Positions 2,378-63,637 of a stretch of DNA of 64,000 bases are shown here, piece after piece (within the stretch, counting starts at the first letter, position 1; each line of letters opens with the position of its first letter). Made by a program: the position numbers and the translations under genes. The notes under the pieces are model-generated. The model saw only the letters and a list, made by a program, of their open reading frames with translations, was not told where the DNA came from and made no database searches. The stretch covers positions 29,514 through 93,513 of the IMG/VR virus record IMGVR_UViG_3300042879_005260. One strand, 5' to 3'. The stretch comes from a virus. Taxonomy: Duplodnaviria; Heunggongvirae; Uroviricota; Caudoviricetes.

Positions 2378-3622
2378 TTAATTTATCATAAGAATACGTT
2401 TTGTTATGTTATTACCTATTGTAACTATATAATTACCAGAAACAATGTCACCGACTTCAAAAGTTTGTGTACCAACAAATAAAATATTGTTAAATTTTTT
2501 AACACATTGGCCAGTTATATTGTAAATTTTAATATCACCACTTTTTTCTGTGACATTTTTAAAATTTAAAAAAATAAAATTTCTATCAGTAAAAACATCT
2601 ACAGTTTTATTTGTTTCTGAAAAAAAACCAGATGGATCCGAAATTTCAACAAGTACCGAATCTTCGGAAACACAAATACCATTGCTTGATTTTAATTTAA
2701 CAACATAAGTACCAACTTGGTTATAAACATGTGAAACCGTTGTTGAAATGGTGGAGTCAACCGCTGAACCATCACCAAAATCCCATATCTGACTTACTCC
2801 ATTAATAATTGTTGCATAAAAAATAATCGGGGTATTTATTATTCCAATAATTGGATTTATGTAATTAAATTGTATTTTAACAAAGTTAGTATTTGGGATT
2901 GTAACCCAATCCTCTATTATAAAACCATCTATTTGTAACAACATTTTATAGTTTCCAGATGTCAATAAAAAAAATATCGTATCAGATTCACCACTAAAAT
3001 CGGTAACAGTACCCAAAGTATCGTTTTCTGAGTTAATCAAAGTGATATCAACATCTAAAAAATTACTTAAATATTGAGTGACAATTAAACCACTACCATG
3101 TAAAACAGATTGTACCTGGCAAGGTTCTACGATTCCCGCCACAGTAAGAGGTGGGTGTATATGTATAAAAAACCTATTGTTAAATGTACCTGGAGTTAGT
3201 GAAACAGTAACACTGTTGTTTATTCTTAGGTTTTGTTTTAAACCTGTAATAGAATCTTCAATATAAATCATACTACTGGGTGGAAAACTACTAAAGTCAG
3301 AAACTGTTATTGTGTAATTTGCCAATGTTTGTATATAAAGGCCTAATGGTATTTTAAAATCTTTATTTAATTGACCCATAACGTTGATGGCCAATTTTTC
3401 ATTATCTATTATAGTGTAAATACTTGGGACACCTGGTAATGCCGCTAACATCTTTACACCGTCACTGCTTAGATTGAAACTATCACTTCCTAATGGGTCA
3501 AAATATATTACAGTTTCATCAGCACTATTATTACCTTGTAGTTCAATACACAATAGATTAGGTATTTCATTGGCGAATAAATTGGTTGTTATTAAGCAAA
3601 AAAATAGTAAAAACTTTTTCAT
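2378..3622 (-). CDS. secreted protein with T9SS type A (Por) C-terminal sorting domain
   Basis: signal peptide MKKFLLFFCLITTNLFA; C-terminus IKIYNITGQCV...GNYIVTIGN resembles Por secretion tail. Confidence 0.5.
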   Translation of the reverse strand: MKKFLLFFCLITTNLFANEIPNLLCIELQGNNSADETVIYFDPLGSDSFNLSSDGVKMLAALPGVPSIYTIIDNEKLAINVMGQLNKDFKIPLGLYIQTLANYTITVSDFSSFPPSSMIYIEDSITGLKQNLRINNSVTVSLTPGTFNNRFFIHIHPPLTVAGIVEPCQVQSVLHGSGLIVTQYLSNFLDVDITLINSENDTLGTVTDFSGESDTIFFLLTSGNYKMLLQIDGFIIEDWVTIPNTNFVKIQFNYINPIIGIINTPIIFYATIINGVSQIWDFGDGSAVDSTISTTVSHVYNQVGTYVVKLKSSNGICVSEDSVLVEISDPSGFFSETNKTVDVFTDRNFIFLNFKNVTEKSGDIKIYNITGQCVKKFNNILFVGTQTFEVGDIVSGNYIVTIGNNITKRILMIN

Positions 3623-12546: not shown

Positions 12547-13242
12547 ATGAATATATTCAGAAGAATAATAAAAGAATCTATAACGGAAACGGAATATAAC
12601 CGTTTAATCGGTGAAGGTTTAATAAAAACCCACAACCCAAACAAAGTTATTAGTATGTTAAATAGATTTCTTCAGAATACATTAGACGTTAGATTACATC
12701 AAGAAGATAGTTCCAACAGTTACGGTATTATTTTAGTGTACCTTAAAGAAGAATTCAAAAAAACAAAAATAAATGAATTACTTTCTTTCATGGATAACAT
12801 GGGTTATTACCCAGCAGGTTTCTTCGATAAACACAATAGGTTTGTTAAAGAATATGAAGAATTAGGTGATAGTTTATACGGTATTAGGTTTGAACCCAAA
12901 TTTGATTTGGAATATATACCAGAAAGTAGATATTTGTACCATGTAACAGACGGTAAACACATATCTAAAATAAAGAAAATAGGTTTAACGCCAAGAACAA
13001 AGTCTAAAGCATTATACCATCCAGAAAGGATATATTTATCAAAAACCTTTGATGATGCGGTAAACATAAGAACAATATTTACTTTAAGTAACTTAGAGTC
13101 CGATAGTGGTTTAGTGATGTTAAAAATTGATTTACAAAATTTATTTATTCATTTACGTGAAGACTCACAATTTAACGGAGGTGTTTATACCACTGATAAT
13201 ATACCACCAAATCACATAGAGATAATTGATTTAAAAAAATAA
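12547..13242 (+). CDS. hypothetical protein
   Basis: ORF track 231 aa. Confidence 0.45.
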   Translation: MNIFRRIIKESITETEYNRLIGEGLIKTHNPNKVISMLNRFLQNTLDVRLHQEDSSNSYGIILVYLKEEFKKTKINELLSFMDNMGYYPAGFFDKHNRFVKEYEELGDSLYGIRFEPKFDLEYIPESRYLYHVTDGKHISKIKKIGLTPRTKSKALYHPERIYLSKTFDDAVNIRTIFTLSNLESDSGLVMLKIDLQNLFIHLREDSQFNGGVYTTDNIPPNHIEIIDLKK

Positions 13243-28150: not shown

Positions 28151-28151
28151 T

Positions 28152-28439
28152 TTATTCGTTTTCAGTAGGTATTTCTTTATCTTTGGTAAACCTTCTAATA
28201 GCTAATAAAGCAGAACCAATAGTAAATAATGCAACACTTTGCATGGTTATTGTTGTTAGTATAGCGTTTGTTTGATCATTTACATTACGTGTGAAAACAG
28301 CTTCTATTGAGGCAACACCAAAAACTAAAACTGAAACTATACAAGCAAAAAAGCCAACGATTTTACCTGGACTTGTACGACCTTTGGAGTCGTTAAAAAT
28401 TTCCCGCCATTCAAATTTATGTAAATTAGGTTTTTCCAT
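28152..28439 (-). CDS. small two-TM membrane protein
   Basis: hydrophobic helices; lone minus-strand gene between plus-strand genes. Confidence 0.35.
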   Translation of the reverse strand: MEKPNLHKFEWREIFNDSKGRTSPGKIVGFFACIVSVLVFGVASIEAVFTRNVNDQTNAILTTITMQSVALFTIGSALLAIRRFTKDKEIPTENE

Positions 28440-28487
28440 GATTTTCTTTTTTTATATAAATACTTATATTACATAAAAGAGATTATT

Positions 28488-28742
28488 ATGATTAAGAAAA
28501 AATTAAAAAAATTTCATTTTCAAACCCCAGAGAAAGACACAAGTTTAGCAGATTATTGGGGACCGATTGTTGAGGGTCTTATAAATAGACAACAGACTCA
28601 AGAGGTGTTATTAAATTTTGTACCCACAAATGTAAATATAACTTATACTGTTTTAGAAGATGGCTGGTATACTGATGGTTATTATGATACCACTTTTGTG
28701 AAAAGTGATATTATACCTTTTAATTTTAAAATTAAAAAATAA
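28488..28742 (+). CDS. hypothetical small protein
   Basis: ORF track 84 aa. Confidence 0.3.
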   Translation: MIKKKLKKFHFQTPEKDTSLADYWGPIVEGLINRQQTQEVLLNFVPTNVNITYTVLEDGWYTDGYYDTTFVKSDIIPFNFKIKK

Positions 28743-28748
28743 ATATTT

Positions 28749-28777
28749 TTGATAATTAAAAATATTTCGTATCTTTG
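28749..28777 (+). promoter_or_regulatory. Bacteroidetes-type promoter
   Basis: TTG at 28749, 18-nt gap, TATCTTTG at 28770-28777, ATG at 28793. Confidence 0.5.
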
Positions 28778-28792
28778 TAAAAAATAAAAAAC

Positions 28793-29002
28793 ATGGCAAC
28801 AGAAGATTTGATTAATAAACTTGAAAAAAAAGTAATTGGTTTAATGGGTAAAATTAAAAATAACGAAATTACACCCGCAGAATCTAAAATCGGTAAACCT
28901 TTAAATCTTTTAAAAGACTTAGATCTTCCACTTTATGAAAAACTTTTAGCAGAATATAAAATAGTTTTAGAAAATTATAAAAAAAATATTGACAATAAAT
29001 AA
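28793..29002 (+). CDS. hypothetical small protein
   Basis: ORF track 69 aa, preceded by promoter motif. Confidence 0.35.
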   Translation: MATEDLINKLEKKVIGLMGKIKNNEITPAESKIGKPLNLLKDLDLPLYEKLLAEYKIVLENYKKNIDNK

Positions 29003-29154
29003 CTTTTTACGATCTTTGTGTATATTTATTAATCAAATGAAAAATTTAACAAACATATTACCTTTTATGCCGACGGTGGAATTTCAGCTTAAAATAGCTA
29101 GGCTCGGGTTTTTGTTTAATTGTTAAATTTTAAATTTAATCAATATATAGAAAA

Positions 29155-29181
29155 AACCTGAGAATCTCTCAGGTTTTTTTG
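29155..29181 (+). terminator. rho-independent terminator
   Basis: cctgagaatctctcagg hairpin plus T7. Confidence 0.6.
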
Positions 29182-29208
29182 TTTTATGACTCTTTGAAAT
29201 ATTTTAAT

Positions 29209-29279
29209 GTCCGATGGTGTAACGGCTAACATTTCTGAATTTGACTCAGAAGATTTCAGGTTCGAATCCTGATCGGACA
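29209..29279 (+). tRNA. tRNA-Gln(UUG)
   Basis: acceptor GTCCGAT/ATCGGAC, anticodon arm TCTGA-ATTTGAC-TCAGA, T-arm TCAGGTTCGAATCCTGA. Confidence 0.7.
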
Positions 29280-29288
29280 ACCATAACC

Positions 29289-29361
29289 GGAGCTTTCGTA
29301 TAGCTGGTGCGTACGTTGGACTGAAAATCCAAAGGACTAGGCTCGATTCCTAGAGGCTCCA
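29289..29361 (+). tRNA. tRNA-Phe(GAA)
   Basis: anticodon arm TTGGA-CTGAAAA-TCCAA; T-loop CTCGATT. Confidence 0.7.
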
Positions 29362-29367
29362 CTGAAC

Positions 29368-29441
29368 GGCGTCGTAGTCAAGTGGTTTAAGACAGGACTC
29401 TCATAAGGTCCCATTCGGGGGTTCGAATCCCTTCGACGCTA
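29368..29441 (+). tRNA. tRNA-Met/Ile2(CAU)
   Basis: anticodon arm GGACT-CTCATAA-GGTCC; T-arm GGGGGTTCGAATCCCTT. Confidence 0.65.
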
Positions 29442-29446
29442 CAAAT

Positions 29447-29519
29447 TCTCCTGAAGCATTGCTGGCGATGCACCTGACTTGTAATCAGGATACAATCGGT
29501 TCGATTCCGGTCGGGAGAT
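29447..29519 (+). tRNA. tRNA-Thr(UGU)
   Basis: anticodon arm CCTGA-CTTGTAA-TCAGG; T-loop TTCGATT. Confidence 0.65.
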
Positions 29520-29525
29520 CCAAAT

Positions 29526-29597
29526 AGTTCTGTAACTCAATGGAAGAGTACCAAGCTTACATCTTGGCTGTCGTTAGTTCGATTCTAACCAGAACTA
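29526..29597 (+). tRNA. tRNA-Val(UAC)
   Basis: acceptor AGTTCTG/CAGAACT; anticodon arm CCAAG-CTTACAT-CTTGG. Confidence 0.65.
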
Positions 29598-29604
29598 CTT
29601 AAAT

Positions 29605-29679
29605 GCCTCCATGGCGGAATTGGTAGACGCGTCACTCTTAGAAAGTGAATTTTTGTAGGTTCGAATCCTACTGGGGGCA
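29605..29679 (+). tRNA. tRNA-Leu(UAG), short variable arm
   Basis: Leu-type D-arm GCGGAATTGGTAGACGC; anticodon arm TCACT-CTTAGAA-AGTGA; discriminator A; only 75 nt. Confidence 0.55.
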
Positions 29680-29690
29680 CAAAAAAATAT

Positions 29691-29721
29691 TTGGTAAATT
29701 AAAAAATTTTATCTATATTTG
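29691..29721 (+). promoter_or_regulatory. Bacteroidetes-type promoter inside the tRNA cluster
   Basis: TTG at 29691, 20-nt gap, TATATTTG at 29714-29721, directly upstream of tRNA-Glu. Confidence 0.45.
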
Positions 29722-29733
29722 TACAACAATAAC

Positions 29734-29805
29734 GGTCGGTTCATCTAAGGGTTAGGATACAAGATTTTCATTCTTGTCATAGGGGTCCGAATCCCCTACC
29801 GACTA
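29734..29805 (+). tRNA. tRNA-Glu(UUC)
   Basis: anticodon arm CAAGA-TTTTCAT-TCTTG; T-arm AGGGGTCCGAATCCCCT. Confidence 0.65.
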
Positions 29806-29876
29806 CAAAAGGTTGATTGGGAATTCGGTGAACCGATGAGGTGAGTGAAACTAATCATAAAGTTCTTTGATATTAT

Positions 29877-29964
29877 GGCTGGGTGGCGAAATTTGGTTAT
29901 ACGCGAAAGACTTAAAATCTTTTGGACCGTGAGGTCCGTGCGGGTTCGAGTCCCGCCCCGGCTA
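29877..29964 (+). tRNA. tRNA-Leu(UAA), class II
   Basis: anticodon arm AAAGA-CTTAAAA-TCTTT; long variable arm TGGACCGTGAGGTCCGT; T-arm GCGGGTTCGAGTCCCGC. Confidence 0.7.
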
Positions 29965-29970
29965 CTAAAC

Positions 29971-30047
29971 ATGGTGATAGAGGAGTCAGGTTTATCTCGC
30001 TTGGTTTGGGACCAAGAATTACGTGGGTTCGAATCCCACTCACCATA
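29971..30047 (+). tRNA. tRNA-Pro(UGG)
   Basis: acceptor ATGGTGA/TCACCAT; anticodon arm CTTGG-TTTGGGA-CCAAG. Confidence 0.6.
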
Positions 30048-30055
30048 CTAAACAA

Positions 30056-30128
30056 GCCCTCGTGGCGCAACGGTGAGCGCAGGATGCTTATATCATCAAG
30101 GCTGTTGGTTCGAGTCCAACCGAGGGTA
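30056..30128 (+). tRNA. tRNA-Ile(UAU) candidate
   Basis: anticodon arm GGATG-CTTATAT-CATCA gives anticodon TAT; T-arm GTTGGTTCGAGTCCAAC. Confidence 0.5.
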
Positions 30129-30227
30129 CTAAAAAAAATATTAATCCTAGATTAAAATGAAAATAAAATATAAATATAAACAGTAAGGTTAGTCCACTAC
30201 GAATGGGCTAACCTTATAAAATGTTAA

Positions 30228-30299
30228 CCGCTCGTAGCAAACTGGTGTAGGCAATAGACTTTTAATCTATGGGGCTGGGTTCGACTCCCAGCGGGCGGA
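30228..30299 (+). tRNA. tRNA-Lys(UUU)
   Basis: anticodon arm ATAGA-CTTTTAA-TCTAT; T-arm CTGGGTTCGACTCCCAG. Confidence 0.65.
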
Positions 30300-30324
30300 C
30301 AAAAACCAAATTAAATAAGATTAC

Positions 30325-32434: not shown

Positions 32435-32443
32435 TAAAGGTTT

Positions 32444-32520
32444 AGTCAGGTGGCTGAATTGGCGACAGAGGCACTCCATTAGACAATGGGTGGATGCAGG
32501 TTCGAGTCCTGTCCTGACTA
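32444..32520 (+). tRNA. tRNA-like element with aberrant anticodon region
   Basis: acceptor AGTCAGG/CCTGACT and T-arm GCAGGTTCGAGTCCTGT are canonical, but the central region forms an extended CCATT-AGAC-AATGG hairpin instead of a 7-nt anticodon loop. Confidence 0.4.
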
Positions 32521-32540
32521 CTAAAAAATTAAAAAATAAA

Positions 32541-32570
32541 TTTGACTTTAAATAAAAAACACTTATATTT
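32541..32570 (+). promoter_or_regulatory. Bacteroidetes-type promoter (TTGACT..19..TATATTTG)
   Basis: TTGACT at 32541, TATATTTG at 32563-32570, ATG at 32596. Confidence 0.5.
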
Positions 32571-32595
32571 GTATTAAAATCAAACATTTAGACTT

Positions 32596-33510
32596 ATGAA
32601 AAAGAACTCACTCTCAACTGCCGGACTTTCGTTATCTCAAGCACAATCAATTAGTAATCTTTGTAATCAAAGAGCTAAAGATATTGAGGCGGATTTAAAA
32701 AATGTTAATAATGTTGAGAAGGTTTTAAAAATAAACAATGAAGTTTATGTTGAAACGACCGCAAAAAAACTGCCTGAAAATACCATAGAGATTTTATCAG
32801 AGAAAGCAAAATTACATGCTTGTCAGGCATTTTTAATGGAAAACATAAAAGCCAAAGATCAGTTGATAACTGAATTACAACGTAAAGTTTTTGTTTCTAA
32901 TTTAGAAGAACCTAAAATACCAGAATATAAAACATACGATGAATTACCTTTGGTGAATGAAGTTTGGGGTTGGGGCCAGCTTTCGGTTTCTGAATATAAT
33001 GAATATTTGGAGGCAGAGGCTTACGCATCCCATATTGGACAGTTTATCCATAAAGACGGTAAATTGGACACTCTTCGTAGAGAACTACCAAATATTAAAA
33101 CTTTGGAGTGGATTACGATTAAAGATGGTGAAAAAACACCTTTAAAGGTTACTATTCACCACACTCAGAGCCAATTATTGGAATTACATGAAAATTTGGC
33201 CGCAATGCACCGTAAATACGAACAACGTGTTAATTACTTTAAAGCAAAAGTAAAAAACATGGTAACCGAAGAAAATGCTCGTATTTCTAAGGAAAATGCA
33301 TTTAAGTTGGCGGAAGTAATAAAAGAAAACGAAATTCTTGAAAAAGAATTCACCAACCTGTATAAAAATTACCAATCTGAAAACCTAAAATTGAAACAAG
33401 ATTTTGAGGTGAGTCGTCAAGAACAAATTAAAGAAGTTTCTTCTTTAAGAATTCAGGTGGACCCAAGATTTCAAGAGGTTGTTAATTTTTTTTTAAGTAA
33501 AATGGCATAA
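32596..33510 (+). CDS. coiled-coil hypothetical protein
   Basis: ORF track 304 aa. Confidence 0.4.
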   Translation: MKKNSLSTAGLSLSQAQSISNLCNQRAKDIEADLKNVNNVEKVLKINNEVYVETTAKKLPENTIEILSEKAKLHACQAFLMENIKAKDQLITELQRKVFVSNLEEPKIPEYKTYDELPLVNEVWGWGQLSVSEYNEYLEAEAYASHIGQFIHKDGKLDTLRRELPNIKTLEWITIKDGEKTPLKVTIHHTQSQLLELHENLAAMHRKYEQRVNYFKAKVKNMVTEENARISKENAFKLAEVIKENEILEKEFTNLYKNYQSENLKLKQDFEVSRQEQIKEVSSLRIQVDPRFQEVVNFFLSKMA

Positions 33511-33849
33511 TGAAGGTGGTTCAAAAGTAAGCATAAGCCGATATTTTGAACTTTTGTATTTGGTGGTTTGGTTCTTAATGTAATGAATATTACTCAATAA
33601 TTAATTTACATTTTTTTATCATCTAGGTGATAAAAATACCAAACCGCTTCCTTACAAACTTTAAAAACTGAGATAGAACTCACGGTTAGACAGGTTATCC
33701 TATAGTGGAAGAATTGGCTAACAAATTGAGACTTGGTTTTTGGCTTTGTCTTTGATGTGAGGAAGGTCTTTGATTTAGTTTTTGATTTAGACGTTATCTA
33801 CACACCAAATCACTAAATAACTTCATAAAACATTAGTTCTTTAAATTTT

Positions 33850-34121
33850 GCACCTGTAGCTCAGTTGGATTAGAGCAACTGCCTCAAATCGGGGGTGTTA
33901 TGTCAGAAATGACATAATAGAATTCATCAAATTCGGGGAATCCTGTAAAATGGTAATCCCGAGCGAAGCCTGAAAAGGAACGTGTAGAGACTTGACGGTG
34001 AACACCTAAGTTAGAATCTAATAAGGTGATGGGAAAGTCCAGACCACAAACGTAAATGGTAGTGAAAACTATAGTGGTATGTCTAAGCAGTAGGTCCCAG
34101 GTTCGAATCCTGGCAGGTGTA
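33850..34121 (+). tRNA. tRNA-Arg(UCU) interrupted by a group I intron
   Basis: 5' exon GCACCTGTAGCTCAGTTGGATTAGAGCAACTGCCT (33850-33884); 3' exon TCTAAGCAGTAGGTCCCAGGTTCGAATCCTGGCAGGTGTA (34082-34121). Spliced product closely matches bacterial tRNA-Arg(UCU). Exon ends in U, intron ends in G. Confidence 0.6.
33885..34081 (+). ncRNA. group I intron (trnL-intron-like core), ~197 nt
   Basis: GGTAATCCCGAGCGAAGCC resembles the trnL intron GGGCAATCCTGAGCCAA element; GTGTAGAGACTTGACGG resembles the catalytic-core GCAGAGACTCAATGG; P7 pairing GACUU/AAGUC present. Confidence 0.55.
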
Positions 34122-34341
34122 CAATGAGTAAGAGATACTCAGCAGTCTTTGGTTCAAGACTCATTTAACAATGAACCCGTTCAAACTGGACAGCGGAATG
34201 CCAGTTCTTAGGGTCAAAGGCGCCAATCACAGCTCCTCCTTCGTAGTGTGACTTTTTTAATAGGGGATGCCCTGTAGGTTTCATCAATAGGAAAAAAACC
34301 GGAATGACTACTCACCTGGAATCTCAAGGTGGGGAAATTTA

Positions 34342-34433
34342 GTCGGGTGGCGGAATTGGTAGACGCTGGCTTGAGAAGAATGTAGAGAGAGCCTTAAAGG
34401 ACATTCAATACAGGTTCGAATCCTGTCCTGACA
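34342..34433 (+). tRNA. tRNA-like element (Leu-type D-arm), anticodon arm unresolved
   Basis: GGCGGAATTGGTAGACGC D-arm and AGGTTCGAATCCT T-arm; 3' half nearly identical to the 32444 element; middle forms a GAATGT...ACATTC hairpin with a 17-nt loop. Confidence 0.35.
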
Positions 34434-34455
34434 ACTAAAAAAAATACAAAAATAC

Positions 34456-34486
34456 TTGATAGATTAAAAAATATTTAGTATCTTTG
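34456..34486 (+). promoter_or_regulatory. Bacteroidetes-type promoter P1 in RNA island
   Basis: TTGATA..20 nt..TATCTTTG (34479-34486). Confidence 0.5.
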
Positions 34487-34597
34487 TTATGTTCTTTGGA
34501 AAGGAGGTCTGGTGTGAACCTGAGATATTTGAGATTCCCGATAAGGGAACGATTTTAAGCGACTCAGTAGCACATTCCAAACAACAAAAAAAATATT

Positions 34598-34628
34598 ACA
34601 AAAGTACTTGACAAATTAAAAAATGTTT
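34598..34628 (+). promoter_or_regulatory. Bacteroidetes-type promoter P2 (near-duplicate of P1)
   Basis: TTGACA..20 nt..TATCTTTG (34621-34628); ~50-bp block nearly identical to P1. Confidence 0.5.
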
Positions 34629-34634
34629 AGTATC

Positions 34635-35810
34635 TTTGTAAGACAAAATCGGGAAACCGAATCGTTCTTTGAAAAAATAGATTATCCGTTCAGGTGAAAG
34701 TAAGTTCTTCGGAACTATGATAACTTGATAAAGATATTGGGCCGTGTATAGTCCTTAAATAAACTACGAAAGTAGGATAAAGTGAAATCATCTGTGTTAG
34801 TGGTTTTGCGTCTTGGGAAACCGAGGTCGAGTACACAAGTGGGATATCATCTAACCTTTAGTACTGAGGGCAACGCTTTAGGGAAAATGGTTAGATGACT
34901 AAGCAATGTGGATTGTTTAGTTGAGGTGGGAACACCGATAAGAATAACCCATAGGAATCTTACAAAAAATGTGATTATCCAGTTACATTATTGTGGGTTC
35001 CAATACAAGAGAGGACTTAAAACCGAAAGGTAAGATGGAGAACGAGTGGTGTCGCTACCATCCCTATCAAAGATTTACCAAAATCTTGATATGAAGTAAT
35101 CTTAAAATATGGAAATGGGGACATTTCACTGAGTAGTTTGGTATTCTTTTCTTCAAAAGAGAACGGAGCCTACGACGGACCACTACTTGGACACATCCAC
35201 AACACAAAAACTTTATTATGAAAATTAAAGTCCATTTAATAAATAATTCTAAAGCAAAAGTGTTCGTCAGGTGTTGATGAAAGGTGATTACATAGTCATG
35301 AGTTGTTCATGGCACACTGAGACCGCAAGTTGATGTGTATTCTTGTGAAAAACCTCTAGTCCCGCAAGGATCAACTGGGGAGGCATCCTCGGAGAGAGTT
35401 GAGTAGAAAGAGAGTAGTTGGCACCTCTAGGAGTTGTATACCTAAAAAACCATCACTGAGAAATACTTCTCAAAAGGAAGTGGAAATAAAGGGAAACAAT
35501 AATCCTTTTAAAGGTTCTCACAAAAAACGTGTATTCTCAGCGTAAGTTTTAAAAAATATTTTAAAAGTAAAAAATCAAAACCACTGGTTAAACCCACTGG
35601 GGATTAGGCTCTAATGATGTCCACCCTTTGGTAAGTACTCACAATAGGCCGGCTTCTTTAATGGCTGATACGTGTATAAGTCCGAGCATAAAACACGAAC
35701 TCTACTTACTTTGTGAAATTACTGCCAATTGCAGACTACTATGTGGAATAAATAGATGACCTTCTGAACATAAAGATAAGTGCTCTTGGTTTGATTTTGT
35801 TATAATATAA
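34635..35810 (+). ncRNA. candidate large structured non-coding RNA (~1.2 kb, unknown family)
   Basis: downstream of promoter P2; no ORF above 60 aa on either strand; locally GC-richer than genome; many local hairpins; T-arm-like GGTTCGATTCC near 35855. Confidence 0.3.
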
Positions 35811-35959
35811 GGCGGGCGGACAGGTTGGTATCTGAGGAAGTCTCATAAGCTTCAAAAATCTGGTTCGATTCCAGAGCGTCGCAACTAATGTGTCACCAAT
35901 CCCTGGTTCAAATTGGTGGTCTCGGTGAAAGGTACTAGTCCTATTTCACCCAAACATAA

Positions 35960-36030
35960 GCGAGTATAGCATAAAATTAATGCGCCGGTTTTCCAAACCG
36001 AAGAAGGTGGAGAGTTACCATCTACTCGCT
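35960..36030 (+). tRNA. tRNA-Gly(UCC) candidate with atypical D/T loops
   Basis: acceptor GCGAGTA/TACTCGC; anticodon arm CCGGT-TTTCCAA-ACCGA; T-stem GGTGG/CCATC with non-canonical loop AGAGTTA; D-loop lacks GG. Confidence 0.4.
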
Positions 36031-36039
36031 CAAAAATAA

Positions 36040-36110
36040 GCGGTATTTGTGTAGTGGTAAGACATGACATTGCCAATGTTAAGACGTAAGTTCGATTCTT
36101 GCATACCGCT
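36040..36110 (+). tRNA. tRNA-Gly(GCC)
   Basis: acceptor GCGGTAT/ATACCGC; anticodon arm TGACA-TTGCCAA-TGTTA; T-arm GTAAGTTCGATTCTTGC. Confidence 0.6.
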
Positions 36111-36156
36111 CTATTGATTTTTTTACATTGTAAACATATATTTATATTAAAAAAAT

Positions 36157-36708
36157 ATGAAAGATAAATTTGATGATTTTGGTGACGACTTTTTTGGTCG
36201 TTGGGAAGAGTTTAATAGATTAATGGTTAACTCACCTTTGATAAGAGATGAAATGGAAAAATTTCTTCGAATGCTAATGGATTCCAATGATTTAAATAAC
36301 GAAATTTCAAATATTAGAATCATACCTTTGAATGCTTATAAGCCAAATGATATTGATTCTTTTGATATTCCAGAAAACGAATTGGATGTTGAAAAAGGTG
36401 AAAATGAAAACGGTAAATGGGAAACTAAAAGTTGGACATCTCCAGATGGTTCTATGAGTTTTAAATCTTTTAGTATGTCATCAACACCCGAAGAATTTTT
36501 TTATAAAAATTTAATGTCAGATCTTTTTCAAACTGGTGACAATAGAAATTCAAAAAAATATACTACAGAAGATTTGAAAAATTTTAAAATAGAAAAACTC
36601 CAAAAATCTTTAAATGCCGCAGTTGAAGTTGAAGATTATGAAAAAGCTGCGGAACTTAAAAAAATGATTGAAAAAATAAAAGAAGAAAATTTTGATAATA
36701 AAAAATAA
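36157..36708 (+). CDS. acidic protein with UVR-like motif
   Basis: C-terminal LQKSLNAAVEVEDYEKAAELKKMIEKIK resembles UvrB/UvrC (UVR) domain. Confidence 0.4.
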   Translation: MKDKFDDFGDDFFGRWEEFNRLMVNSPLIRDEMEKFLRMLMDSNDLNNEISNIRIIPLNAYKPNDIDSFDIPENELDVEKGENENGKWETKSWTSPDGSMSFKSFSMSSTPEEFFYKNLMSDLFQTGDNRNSKKYTTEDLKNFKIEKLQKSLNAAVEVEDYEKAAELKKMIEKIKEENFDNKK

Positions 36709-36727
36709 TTTTATATATTTGTGATAT

Positions 36728-36890
36728 ATTTATAAAACAGAAAATGAAAAATTGGCAAAACATATCGATTAACCATAGTAACCGAATTAGTTCGGAATGT
36801 ATGAGGTGTGTCTTGTCCAGATTTAAGGTATAATTATTTTTATAAAAAATTGGATAACCCACCTCAAGAAATTTGATGGTGGGTTTTTTG
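36728..36890 (+). ncRNA. candidate small RNA (~160 nt) between promoter and terminator
   Basis: TTGATA..TATATTTG promoter at 36692-36721; terminator hairpin 36856-36885 plus T-run; only a 29-aa ORF inside. Confidence 0.3.
36855..36890 (+). terminator. rho-independent terminator
   Basis: aacccacc...ggtgggtt hairpin plus T6. Confidence 0.6.
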
Positions 36891-37006
36891 TTATTTGACA
36901 TATTGGAAATAAATTGGAGAGTTAAGCAGATGCATTGGAGCGTCGACCAGCTTTGAAACCTGGGTCTCGTTAAATTGAGTGGGGGTCGGGTCCTCAGCTC
37001 TCCGCT

Positions 37007-37081
37007 GTGTCTGTAGCTTAGATGGTTTAAAGCGTCTGATTGTGGTTCAGAAGACCGTGGGTTCGAATCCCACCAGACACC
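37007..37081 (+). tRNA. tRNA-His(GUG)
   Basis: acceptor GTGTCTG/CAGACAC; anticodon arm TCTGA-TTGTGGT-TCAGA; T-arm GTGGGTTCGAATCCCAC. Confidence 0.65.
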
Positions 37082-63564: not shown

Positions 63565-63637
63565 CGGTCCACACGGGAGTTGAACCCGTTCCATACTCCG
63601 TGACAGGGAGATATCTTAACCGTTTGACCTGTGGACC
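63565..63637 (-). tRNA. tRNA-Asp(GUC)
   Basis: reverse complement: acceptor GGTCCAC/GTGGACC, anticodon loop CTGTCAC, T-arm ACGGGTTCAACTCCCGT. Confidence 0.55.

What the first reader, a model, noticed from the sequence alone, without database searches (positions are those of the whole stretch)
33530..36130. 2.6-kb ORF-free RNA island with duplicated promoters, tRNAs, tRNA-like elements and a ~1.2-kb candidate structured RNA
No ORF above 60 aa on either strand. Two near-identical Bacteroidetes-type promoters (34456-34486 and 34598-34628) each precede a non-coding stretch. The second drives ~1.2 kb (34635-35810) that is GC-richer and full of local helices, followed by two tRNA-Gly genes. Large ornate ncRNAs such as GOLLD, ROOL and HEARO are known to sit beside tRNA clusters in phages, so this could be a member of such a class or a new one.
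Basis: inference. Interest (0 to 1): 0.75.

Follow-up and report, generated by a model that had tools for sequence, protein, structure and literature searches.

The report
GOLLD RNA gene in phage RNA island
The long non-coding stretch is a full-length copy of GOLLD, a known giant phage RNA that assembles into RNA-only cages; around it sit tRNAs, a self-splicing intron and several small structured RNAs that no RNA database lists.

Summary
33511-36156 is the longest stretch of the window free of ORFs of 100 aa or more. It is richer in G+C (38% against 29%) and packed with RNA genes.

The "~1.2 kb candidate RNA" is two separable modules:
- A complete GOLLD RNA (about 34643-35545). Rfam RF02032 scores 306 bits against a threshold of 150, over model positions 1-416 of 416. 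Its roughly 480-nt 5' domain aligns with other GOLLD loci, and 69 of 118 predicted pairs show compensatory changes.
- An unrelated structured RNA of about 225 nt, "element C" (35573-35797). It occurs with or without GOLLD in other phages.

GOLLD is driven by promoter P2 (34608-38, Bacteroidota type). The closest relatives of this phage (about 77% nucleotide identity) keep the same promoter and element C but lack GOLLD, so it is an accessory cassette.

The rest of the island is less ordinary:
- a tRNA-Arg(UCU) split by a group I intron;
- a ~190-nt RNA with strong covariation, found in every sampled locus that has enough sequence after a 304-aa protein of unknown function (83 loci);
- an ~87-nt promoter-proximal leader RNA;
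- tRNA-Leu-framed RNAs with variable inserts.

None of these matches an Rfam family other than tRNA.

The parts
33636..33829 (+). Element A: conserved structured RNA of about 190 nt, directly 3' of the 304-aa ORF (32596-33510). The core hairpin, closed by P1, spans 33647-33765. A 3' tail of tandem nnnUUG hexamers follows.
   Evidence: Covariance model R1 finds one copy in each of 83 loci carrying the 304-aa gene, always about 100-150 nt after it on the same strand. 26 of 30 pairs have compensatory changes against 16.7 in shuffles and 11-15 in slid controls. On the unfitted MAFFT alignment the figure is 15 of 30 against 7.7 in shuffles and 3-7 slid. No Rfam match at E <= 1.
33850..34122 (+). 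tRNA-Arg(UCU) gene interrupted in the anticodon loop. Exon 1 is 33850-33884, the group I intron is 33885-34081, exon 2 is 34082-34122.
   Evidence: ARAGORN with introns allowed reports tRNA-Arg(tct) with a 197-nt intron. Rfam RF00028 scores 61.3 bits against a threshold of 50 at 33875-34062. The joined exons fold into a perfect 76-nt cloverleaf. The 5' exon ends in U and the intron ends in G.
34123..34339 (+). Element E: 217-nt non-coding stretch conserved together with the tRNA-like element that follows it.
   Evidence: About 81% identity over 34100-34439 to L101 and L105, and 72% to L007:7705-7922. Structure not tested.
34340..34437 (+). tRNA-Leu-framed RNA: a constant acceptor stem, D arm and T arm around a variable 45-nt centre that replaces a normal anticodon arm.
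   Evidence: Rfam tRNA scores only 30.3 bits against a threshold of 29. ARAGORN gives inconsistent anticodons. It belongs to a family of 30 distinct elements, 76-147 nt long, sharing the frame AGUCAGG-UGGCGGAAUUGGUAGACGC...ACAGGUUCGAAUCCUGU-CCUGACU.
34456..34486 (+). Promoter P1 (TTGATA-N17-TATCTTTG), Bacteroidota -33/-7 type.
   Evidence: Conserved in relatives L093-L098, and upstream of GOLLD in L083/L088.
34495..34581 (+). Element B: structured leader RNA of about 87 nt, made from P1 (closing stem UUUGGAA/UUCCAAA).
   Evidence: The same element follows the promoter and precedes GOLLD in L083, L088, L110 and L111, and precedes the tRNA-like(CAU) element in L113. 5 of 16 pairs are compensatory among 5 sequences.
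34608..34638 (+). Promoter P2 (TTGACA-N17-TATCTTTG), a near-copy of P1, driving GOLLD.
   Evidence: The same promoter plus the 5' hairpin TCGG-GAAA-CCGA precedes GOLLD in L085, L086, L091 and L092.
34643..35128 (+). GOLLD 5' hairpin and 5' domain. The start is predicted from the promoter, +/- 5 nt.
   Evidence: It aligns with the region upstream of the Rfam-positive 3' domain in L001, L002 and L083-L092. 96.5% of cells are paired. 69 of 118 pairs are compensatory against 37.9 +/- 3.6 in shuffles and 13-24 slid.
35129..35543 (+). GOLLD conserved 3' domain.
   Evidence: Rfam RF02032: 306.4 bits, gathering score 150, E = 9e-87, model 1-416 of 416. All helices, including the 10-pair long-range helix, are present in the printed alignment.
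35573..35797 (+). Element C: separate structured RNA of about 225 nt (closing stem AAUCAAAACCA/UGGUUUGAUU).
   Evidence: It directly follows GOLLD in L107 and L108. It occurs without GOLLD in L093-L098, L101-L106 and L109. 19 of 58 pairs are compensatory against 11 +/- 2 in shuffles and 1-6 slid. No Rfam match.
35811..35888 (+). tRNA-like(CAU) element: invariant CUCAUAA anticodon loop and good D, anticodon and T arms, but an irregular acceptor stem.
   Evidence: Neither ARAGORN nor Rfam calls it. It is conserved in L083/L088 (directly after GOLLD), L113, L027, L013, L015, L017 and L060, with compensatory changes in three stems.
35889..35959 (+). Element D: two-hairpin spacer (CACCAAU/AUUGGUG and GGUGAAA/UUUCACC).
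   Evidence: By eye, about 93% identical to relatives whose flanking coding DNA is about 77% identical. A 25-mer from it has no exact match in IMG/VR. Not analysed further.
35960..36031 (+). tRNA-Gly(UCC).
   Evidence: Rfam tRNA 45.4 bits. ARAGORN calls it only with lowered thresholds.
36040..36111 (+). tRNA-Gly(GCC).
   Evidence: ARAGORN; Rfam 54.6 bits.

Best explanation
The long RNA is a complete gene for GOLLD RNA, about 900 nt at 34643-35545, carried by an uncultivated large phage that probably infects a Bacteroidota host.

Shown:
- It has the universally conserved GOLLD 3' domain.
- It has a structured 5' domain shared with other GOLLD loci.
- It sits directly behind a strong Bacteroidota-type promoter (P2), one of three near-identical promoters that head RNA-gene clusters in this window.
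- It is an accessory cassette. Sister phages keep the promoter and the downstream RNAs but lack GOLLD. Other phages combine the same modules (promoter, leader B, GOLLD, element C, tRNA-like CAU) in different ways.

Inferred:
- GOLLD is transcribed together with element C, the tRNA-like(CAU) element and the two tRNA-Gly genes. No intrinsic terminator lies between them.
- It is released by cleavage in the A/U-rich spacer and by the tRNA-processing nucleases RNase P and RNase Z.
- Like the one GOLLD solved by cryo-EM (env-38), it then self-assembles through its two domains into an RNA-only 14-mer cage during lytic growth.
- Its role most likely concerns the tRNA and translation economy of the infected cell, holding or organising tRNAs, tRNA-like RNAs or ribosomes.

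The identity is near certain. Cage formation for this member is plausible but untested. The cellular role is a guess.
For: Identity:
- Rfam GOLLD scores 306.4 bits against a threshold of 150, with the full model matched.
- The 5' domain is homologous to that of 11 other Rfam- or nhmmer-positive GOLLD loci. 69 of 118 predicted pairs are compensatory and 96.5% of cells are paired.
- The MFE z-score is -4.8.

Promoter:
- P2 is TTGACA-N17-TATCTTTG.
- The same promoter and 5' hairpin are conserved in front of GOLLD in L085, L086, L091 and L092.
- The terminator scan finds no terminator on the + strand between 34640 and 36025.

Accessory cassette:
- Relatives L093-L098 align on both sides but lack 34652-35570, and nhmmer finds no GOLLD in them.
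- Element C occurs with GOLLD (L107, L108) and without it (L101-L106, L109).
- Element B lies in front of GOLLD in L083, L110 and L111, and in front of the tRNA-like(CAU) element in L113.

Host: promoter pattern enrichment, and a protein with a T9SS sorting domain, Por_Secre_tail.

Cage formation and expression in lysis are taken from the literature. PMC12286853 reports the env-38 14-mer with D7 symmetry, 5' domains forming the caps and 3' domains forming the ring, and tRNAs sometimes present in the linker.
Against: - There are no expression data for this phage, so the transcript ends are predictions.
- The intermolecular contacts seen in env-38 were not mapped onto this sequence. GOLLD 5' domains are known to vary, so 14-mer assembly of this subclass is an extrapolation.
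- GOLLD is absent from the closest relatives, so it is dispensable for this phage type.
- Among the GOLLD loci fetched, only some have canonical tRNAs close by. The tRNA link is a tendency, not a rule.
Confidence: 0.9

Rival explanations
1. The whole 34635-35810 stretch is one giant RNA of about 1.2 kb: GOLLD with an extra 3' domain (element C) that works as part of the same molecule.
For: Element C follows GOLLD directly, in the same order and orientation, in three independent loci: the window, L107 and L108. No terminator lies between them.
Against: Element C closes on itself with its own covarying terminal stem. It occurs without GOLLD in at least 7 distinct loci (L093-L098, L101-L106, L109). 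Most GOLLD loci (L001, L002, L083-L092) lack it. A ~30-nt A/U-rich spacer separates the two.
Confidence: 0.1
2. The long RNA is a new class of large non-coding RNA that only resembles GOLLD.
For: The Rfam model covers only the 3' half. No curated model matches the 5' half.
Against: The 3' half matches the complete model at twice the gathering score. The 5' half is homologous, with compensatory changes, to the 5' half of other loci that also carry the Rfam 3' domain. A variable 5' region is a stated property of the family (PMC12286853).
Confidence: 0.01
3. GOLLD here is a selfish or neutral RNA cassette that spreads among phage RNA islands by recombination and does nothing for the phage.
For: Presence or absence varies between phages that are 77% identical, with clean junctions at A-rich repeats and a retained 13-nt piece (AATCGTTCTTTGA) in the GOLLD-less relatives. 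The modules around it are shuffled between phages.
Against: Structure is maintained by many compensatory changes across distant phages. The gene keeps a strong dedicated promoter. Published work reports induction during lysis and an elaborate conserved quaternary structure.
Confidence: 0.1
4. The island is protein-coding under a non-standard genetic code. This was suggested by an ARAGORN call of a 'tRNA-Stop(tta)' at 32444-32521.
For: ARAGORN reports a UUA anticodon. Treating TAA as sense gives ORFs of up to 144 aa in the island.
Against: TAA ends 45 of 56 long ORFs in the window. The 304-aa ORF ends at TAA, with the same length as its homologues. The supposed suppressor is a member of the tRNA-Leu-framed family, with a 4-nt hairpin loop in place of an anticodon loop. 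The region is explained by RNA models with covariation.
Confidence: 0.01

Closest known systems
GOLLD RNA (Rfam RF02032; Weinberg et al. 2009; cryo-EM of env-38, PMC12286853)
   Same: The conserved 3' domain matches in full. There is a structured ~480-nt 5' domain and a total length of about 900 nt. The linker is A/U-rich. The gene is phage-encoded and sits among tRNA genes, next to a tRNA(CAU)-type element; env-38 lies next to tRNA-Met.
   Different: The host is probably Bacteroidota (freshwater or other environmental phage) rather than Lactobacillales or marine. There is no tRNA inside the linker. It belongs to a 5' domain subclass shared with huge phages LR756502 and LR745206 and about 12 IMG/VR contigs. 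It is embedded in a shuffled set of unannotated RNA modules (B, C, tRNA-like CAU). Assembly into a cage was not tested for this subclass.
ROOL RNA (RF03087) and HEARO/omega RNA (RF02033)
   Same: ROOL is also a large phage RNA near tRNA islands that forms a cage. HEARO is also a large ornate RNA.
   Different: Neither family matches anywhere in the window, even at E <= 1 within the island. No IscB-type gene lies beside the island.
Group I introns in bacterial tRNA genes (cyanobacterial tRNA-Leu(UAA), Agrobacterium tRNA-Arg(CCU), Azoarcus tRNA-Ile(CAU); from own knowledge)
   Same: The intron sits in the anticodon loop, follows a U, ends in G, and its removal restores a canonical tRNA.
   Different: Here the gene is a phage tRNA-Arg(UCU). 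The nearest intron cores found interrupt protein-coding regions of other phages: between the two annotated capsid-protein CDSs of Pelagibacter phage HTVC120P, and between a GIY-YIG intron-endonuclease gene and the replicative helicase gene of crAss-like cr111_1.
Phage T4 stable RNAs species 1 and 2 in the tRNA cluster, and engineered 'tRNA scaffold' RNAs (from own knowledge)
   Same: These are small stable RNAs with tRNA-like ends, encoded among phage tRNA genes. An RNA of interest is held in place of the anticodon arm.
   Different: No sequence relationship was tested. The family here shares one fixed tRNA-Leu-like frame and occurs in up to 7 distinct copies per locus, with different inserts.

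Membership tests
GOLLD RNA (RF02032) | Match to the curated covariance model at or above its gathering score | tested here: met
   306.4 bits against 150, E = 9e-87, model 1-416 of 416, not truncated.
GOLLD RNA (RF02032) | Conserved 3' domain helices, including the long-range helix drawn as a pseudoknot in the Rfam consensus | tested here: met
   In the cmscan alignment all hairpins are present. The 10 bracketed pairs AGGUGUUGAU/GUUGGCACCU all form standard or G-U pairs.
GOLLD RNA (RF02032) | A large, less conserved but structured 5' region, giving a total length above about 800 nt | tested here: met
   There are about 486 nt between the predicted start and the 3' domain. This region aligns with 8 other GOLLD loci, with 69 of 118 pairs compensatory. 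The total length is about 903 nt.
GOLLD RNA (RF02032) | Phage or prophage location, often beside tRNA genes | tested here: met
   The window carries 21 or more tRNA genes and phage-type content. Homologous loci are IMG/VR viral contigs and huge-phage genomes.
GOLLD RNA (RF02032) | Self-assembly into a 14-mer cage with D7 symmetry, through conserved kissing loops and A-minor bridges | not testable with these tools
   Known for env-38 only (PMC12286853).
GOLLD RNA (RF02032) | Expression rising during phage-induced lysis | not testable with these tools
   There are no transcript data. A consensus promoter lies directly upstream.
ROOL (RF03087) / HEARO (RF02033) / RNase P / tmRNA / group II intron | Match to the curated covariance model | tested here: not met
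   No match at gathering score in the window, nor at E <= 1 in 33400-36250. ARAGORN finds no tmRNA.
Group I intron (RF00028), for 33885-34081 | Match to the model, a 5' splice site after U, a terminal G, and exons that join into a functional product | tested here: met
   61.3 bits against 50. The exon ends in ...CCU and the intron ends in ...UAUG. The spliced product is a perfect tRNA-Arg(UCU) cloverleaf. Self-splicing itself was not tested.
Canonical tRNA (RF00005), for 34340-34437 and 35811-35888 | Cloverleaf with a 7-nt anticodon loop and a regular 7-bp acceptor stem | tested here: not met
   34340-34437 scores 30.3 bits and has no credible anticodon arm. 35811-35888 is not detected at E <= 1 and its acceptor stem needs a bulge.

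The most novel reading that the evidence does not exclude
GOLLD may be one piece of a shuffled kit of phage RNA genes, several of which are structured RNA classes that Rfam does not list:
- Element A, a ~190-nt RNA with tandem UUG hexamers. It is paired with a widespread 304-aa protein of unknown fold and may form a new phage ribonucleoprotein.
- Element B, a promoter-proximal leader found in front of GOLLD in several phages.
- Element C, a 225-nt RNA found behind GOLLD in several phages.
- A family of RNAs built on one fixed tRNA-Leu frame with interchangeable inserts, which would be natural 'tRNA scaffolds'.

If B, C or the tRNA-like RNAs are partners or cargo of the GOLLD cage, these recurrent neighbours give the first concrete candidates for what GOLLD acts on.
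Probability: 0.35. Interest if true: 0.7.

Novelty: new member of a known kind. Interest (0 to 1): 0.42.

Why it matters
GOLLD is one of the largest bacterial or phage non-coding RNAs. It forms an RNA-only cage, and its function is still unknown.

This locus adds three things:
- a well-delimited member with a predicted promoter in a probable Bacteroidota phage;
- a natural presence/absence contrast with sister phages that share the same promoter and downstream RNAs;
- a short list of RNAs that recur beside GOLLD in unrelated phages: leader B, element C and the tRNA-like(CAU) element.

These are candidates for partners or cargo. They give testable material for pull-downs or co-folding experiments once a cultivable carrier is found.

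Independently, element A with its 304-aa protein (about 2,600 metagenomic homologues, none in GenBank phages) and the tRNA-Leu-framed RNAs are candidates for new RNA families.

Tried and rejected
- **304-aa protein beside element A.** No Pfam or PHROG family. No PDB sequence hit. The AlphaFold2 model is confident (pLDDT 88, a long helix plus two small beta units), but Foldseek against PDB and BFVD gives only an uncharacterised phage homologue. tblastn against 50,697 GenBank phages finds nothing. The genome collection returns only MAG contigs, so it gives no host.
- **Element C as a miniature RNase P RNA.** I considered this because of AAGUCCG and CGGCUU motifs. I rejected it because the order is reversed relative to CR-I/CR-V, and CGGCUU is CUGCUU in most homologues, which breaks a P4-like pairing.
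- **Element A as a 6S-like RNA or a promoter cluster.** I considered this because of its rod shape and TTTG repeats. It was not testable here. No spacing fits a -33/-7 promoter, and the covariation favours an RNA.
- **Alternative genetic code.** Rejected.
- **Looking for GOLLD next to the 304-aa gene in 80 related loci.** None found. GOLLD is not linked to that gene.
- **Second flanking protein (183 aa, UVR motif).** It gave no relatives in IMG/VR.
- **Element D.** A 25-mer from it has no exact match in IMG/VR.
- **Literature search** for group I introns in phage tRNA genes: no relevant report in the library. This is not evidence of novelty.
- **Mapping the env-38 intermolecular bridges** onto this RNA. 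Not possible, because the env-38 sequence was not in the text available.
Full report
**Observation**

- The stretch 33511-36156 lies between a 304-aa ORF (32596-33510) and a 183-aa ORF (36157-36708). It is the longest part of the window without an ORF of 100 aa or more. The second longest is the large tRNA cluster at 28151-30324.
- The only ORF of 60 aa or more inside it is a mechanical 63-aa TTG ORF on the minus strand, lying over the tRNA genes.
- The island has 37.9% G+C against 29.4% for the window.
- TAA ends 45 of 56 long ORFs, so the standard code is in use.
- The two promoters are real matches to the Bacteroidota -33/-7 pattern. P1 is TTGATA-N17-TATCTTTG at 34456-34486.
- P1 and P2 match at about 49 of 54 aligned positions, including the upstream A-run. 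A third near-copy (28749-28777) heads the big tRNA cluster.
- The pattern TTG-N18-21-TAnnTTTG occurs 23 times in the window against 7.3 +/- 2.8 in shuffles.
- A protein with a T9SS sorting domain (2378-3622) also points to a Bacteroidota host.

**The long RNA is GOLLD**

- cmscan of the whole window against Rfam 15 gives GOLLD (RF02032) at 35129-35543: 306.4 bits against a gathering score of 150, E = 9e-87, covering model positions 1-416 of 416.
- In the printed alignment every hairpin is present, and all 10 pairs of the long-range helix form.
- ROOL, HEARO, RNase P, tmRNA and group II introns give nothing, even at E <= 1 in 33400-36250.
- The Rfam model covers only the conserved 3' half of GOLLD. 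According to the cryo-EM paper, the 5' half is less conserved and forms a separate domain (PMC12286853).
- In this window the 5' half is 34643-35128. It aligns with the sequence upstream of the Rfam-positive 3' domain in the huge phages LR756502 and LR745206.
- It also aligns with IMG/VR contigs L083-L092, found with a 36-nt pattern from the 5' domain, and with L107, L110 and L111.
- On nine of these sequences RNAalifold predicts 118 pairs, and 96.5% of cells are paired. 69 pairs carry compensatory changes against 37.9 +/- 3.6 in column shuffles and 13-24 when partners are slid.
- The 903-nt RNA folds with z = -4.8.
- The promoter, a small 5' hairpin (UCGG-GAAA-CCGA, 34649-34660) and the motif GUUCUUUGAAA are conserved in front of GOLLD in L085, L086, L091 and L092. 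From this I place the start near 34643.
- The end is near 35545, after the last model hairpin, where an A/U-rich spacer begins.

- The closest relatives of this phage (L093-L098) are about 77% identical in nucleotides and were found through the 304-aa protein. They align with window 32497-33828, 34437-34651 and 35571-37080, but lack 33829-34436 and 34652-35570.
- nhmmer finds no GOLLD in them.
- At the junction they keep AATCGTTCTTTGA and then run straight into element C.
- So GOLLD is present or absent as a block of about 919 nt, between the P2 promoter and element C.
- The retained 13-mer, and A-rich repeats at both ends, are consistent with loss by deletion in the relatives. Gain cannot be excluded, because GTTCTTTR also occurs after P1 and in front of tRNA genes.
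- Element C (35573-35797) closes on itself with a covarying stem. It has 19 of 58 compensatory pairs, against 11 +/- 2 in shuffles and 1-6 slid.
- Element C follows GOLLD in L107 and L108. It stands without GOLLD in L101-L106 and L109.
- Most GOLLD loci have no element C.

**Other modules around GOLLD**

- *Element B (34495-34581).* This ~87-nt RNA, made from P1, has covarying closing stems: UUUGGAA/UUCCAAA, AUUCGAAA/UUUCGAAU, AUUAGAA/UUCUAAU and UUCAGAA/UUCUGAA.
  - In L083, L088, L110 and L111 it sits between the promoter and GOLLD.
  - In L113 it sits between the promoter and the tRNA-like(CAU) element.
  - In the window and its relatives it is followed by the second promoter.
- *tRNA-like(CAU) element (35811-35888).* It has an invariant CUCAUAA loop and covarying D, anticodon and T stems.
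  - Its acceptor stem pairs only if one 3' nucleotide is bulged. Neither ARAGORN nor Rfam calls it.
  - It directly follows GOLLD in L083 and L088.
  - The window's sister phages carry an ordinary tRNA-Met(CAU) at that place instead.

**The rest of the island**

- *Element A (33636-33829)* follows the 304-aa gene.
  - A covariance model built from 37 sequences finds exactly one copy in each of 83 loci that carry that gene, always about 100-150 nt downstream on the same strand. It finds none in GOLLD-only loci.
  - On the model-fitted alignment, 26 of 30 pairs are compensatory, against 16.7 in shuffles and 11-15 slid. On the unfitted MAFFT alignment, 15 of 30 are, against 7.7 in shuffles and 3-7 slid.
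  - Its most conserved part is a run of nnnUUG hexamers on either side of the 3' strand of the closing stem.
  - The protein has about 2,570 metagenomic homologues, all unnamed, and no informative family or fold match. It has no homologue in GenBank phages.
- *tRNA-Arg(UCU) (33850-34122)* is split after U33 by a 197-nt group I intron (Rfam 61.3 bits).
  - The joined exons give a perfect cloverleaf.
  - Related intron cores lie between the two annotated capsid-protein CDSs of Pelagibacter phage HTVC120P, and between a GIY-YIG intron-endonuclease gene and the replicative helicase gene of a crAss-like phage.
- *34340-34437* is not a normal tRNA. It belongs to a family with one fixed tRNA-Leu-like acceptor stem, D arm and T arm and a variable centre.
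  - 30 distinct members, 76-147 nt long, were counted in the loci at hand, with up to 7 distinct copies in one locus.
  - Some inserts are conserved between phages, with compensatory changes.
  - The 'tRNA-Stop(tta)' that ARAGORN calls at 32444-32521 is another member, not a suppressor.
- Two tRNA-Gly genes close the island.

**How it most likely works**

Shown: gene identity, domain structure, promoter consensus, and the modular, accessory nature of GOLLD.

Inferred:
- P2, and read-through from P1, produce a polycistronic RNA containing GOLLD, C, tRNA-like(CAU), D and the two tRNA-Gly. The scan finds no terminator in between.
- The tRNA-shaped units recruit RNase P and RNase Z, and the A/U-rich spacers are cut, releasing GOLLD.
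- By analogy with env-38, GOLLD then forms a 14-mer cage whose caps are the 5' domains.
- The published ideas for its role (holding tRNAs, ribosomes or other molecules during lysis) fit the neighbourhood seen here. Nothing in the sequence decides among them.

**Comparison and novelty**

- The long RNA meets every sequence-testable criterion of GOLLD, so it is a new member of a known family.
- What is not in Rfam, and may be new, are elements A, B and C and the tRNA-Leu-framed RNAs. Their structures rest on covariation counts from modest samples. For B and C the structures were derived from the same alignments on which pairs were counted, so they remain candidates.

**Dead ends**

These are listed under 'tried and rejected': the partner protein's fold, an RNase P reading of element C, alternative codes, host assignment from genomes, and mapping of the env-38 bridges.

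Noticed in passing
window 33636-33829 (with ORF 32596-33510): Element A is a ~190-nt RNA with strong covariation and tandem nnnUUG hexamers. It was found after the 304-aa protein of unknown function in 83 of the sampled loci. It is not in Rfam. The protein is absent from GenBank phages. The pair may be a new phage protein-RNA partnership.
   Followed up: yes
window 34340-34437 and 32443-32522; L101, L102, L104, L105, L108, L093, L078 and others: A family of RNAs, 76-147 nt long, built on one fixed tRNA-Leu-like acceptor/D/T frame with very different central inserts. 30 distinct members were counted, up to 7 per locus. ARAGORN miscalls them as odd tRNAs, including the 'tRNA-Stop(tta)' at 32444-32521 and a 4-base anticodon in L101.
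   Followed up: partly
window 35573-35797: Element C is a ~225-nt structured RNA with an invariant core, CGUGUAUAAGUCCGAGCAUAAAACACG. It occurs in tRNA islands of at least 15 loci, with or without GOLLD. No Rfam match.
   Followed up: partly
window 34495-34581; L083:684-784, L110:3541-3641(-), L113:8477-8577(-): Element B is an ~87-nt promoter-proximal RNA containing AAGGAGGUCUGGUGUGAACC, with covarying stems. It serves as the leader of GOLLD in four loci and of the tRNA-like(CAU) element in one.
   Followed up: partly
window 33850-34122: A phage tRNA-Arg(UCU) gene is split in the anticodon loop by a 197-nt group I intron. The nearest intron cores lie in protein-coding regions of other phages: capsid in HTVC120P, and beside the replicative helicase in crAss-like cr111_1.
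   Followed up: yes
window 35811-35888; L083:1670-1749, L013:4552-4631, L027:5645-5722: A conserved tRNA(CAU)-like element whose acceptor stem pairs only with a bulged nucleotide. The 6-66 pair covaries, C-G to U-A. tRNA finders miss it. It sits directly after GOLLD in L083 and L088.
   Followed up: partly
window 34123-34339: A 217-nt non-coding stretch conserved at about 81% together with the following tRNA-Leu-framed RNA in L101 and L105, and at 72% in L007. Structure not examined.
   Followed up: no
window 35889-35959: A two-hairpin spacer between the tRNA-like(CAU) element and tRNA-Gly. By eye it is about 93% identical to sister phages whose coding DNA is about 77% identical. A 25-mer from it has no exact match in IMG/VR.
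   Followed up: partly
window 29862, 33836, 34491, 34664 (+ strand): The octamer GTTCTTTR lies a few nucleotides upstream of RNA modules: tRNA-Leu(taa), tRNA-Arg, element B and GOLLD. It also lies at module junctions in L083, L111 and L113. There are 19 copies in the window against 8.9 +/- 2.9 expected. It could be a processing or recombination site.
   Followed up: partly
window 28749-28777, 34456-34486, 34608-34638: Three near-identical promoters, TTGAyAnATTAAAAA(A)TnTTTnGTATCTTTG, each head a cluster of RNA genes.
   Followed up: partly
window 2378-3622 (- strand): A phage ORF with PKD domains and a Por_Secre_tail (T9SS) sorting signal, which suggests a Bacteroidota host.
   Followed up: no
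window 63565-63637 (- strand): A tRNA found by Rfam (51.8 bits) but not by ARAGORN, inside the Cys-Ala-Tyr tRNA cluster.
   Followed up: no
L012:4348-4479: A hatchet ribozyme (RF02678, 60.6 bits against a threshold of 51) upstream of the 304-aa gene homologue in a related viral contig.
   Followed up: no
L095-L098: from 12656/12657 to the locus end at 12915 (- strand): Sister phages carry a TnpB/Cas12f-like gene (OrfB_IS605, RuvC) about 5.7 kb beyond the end of the 304-aa gene. Its presence in the window was not checked.
   Followed up: no
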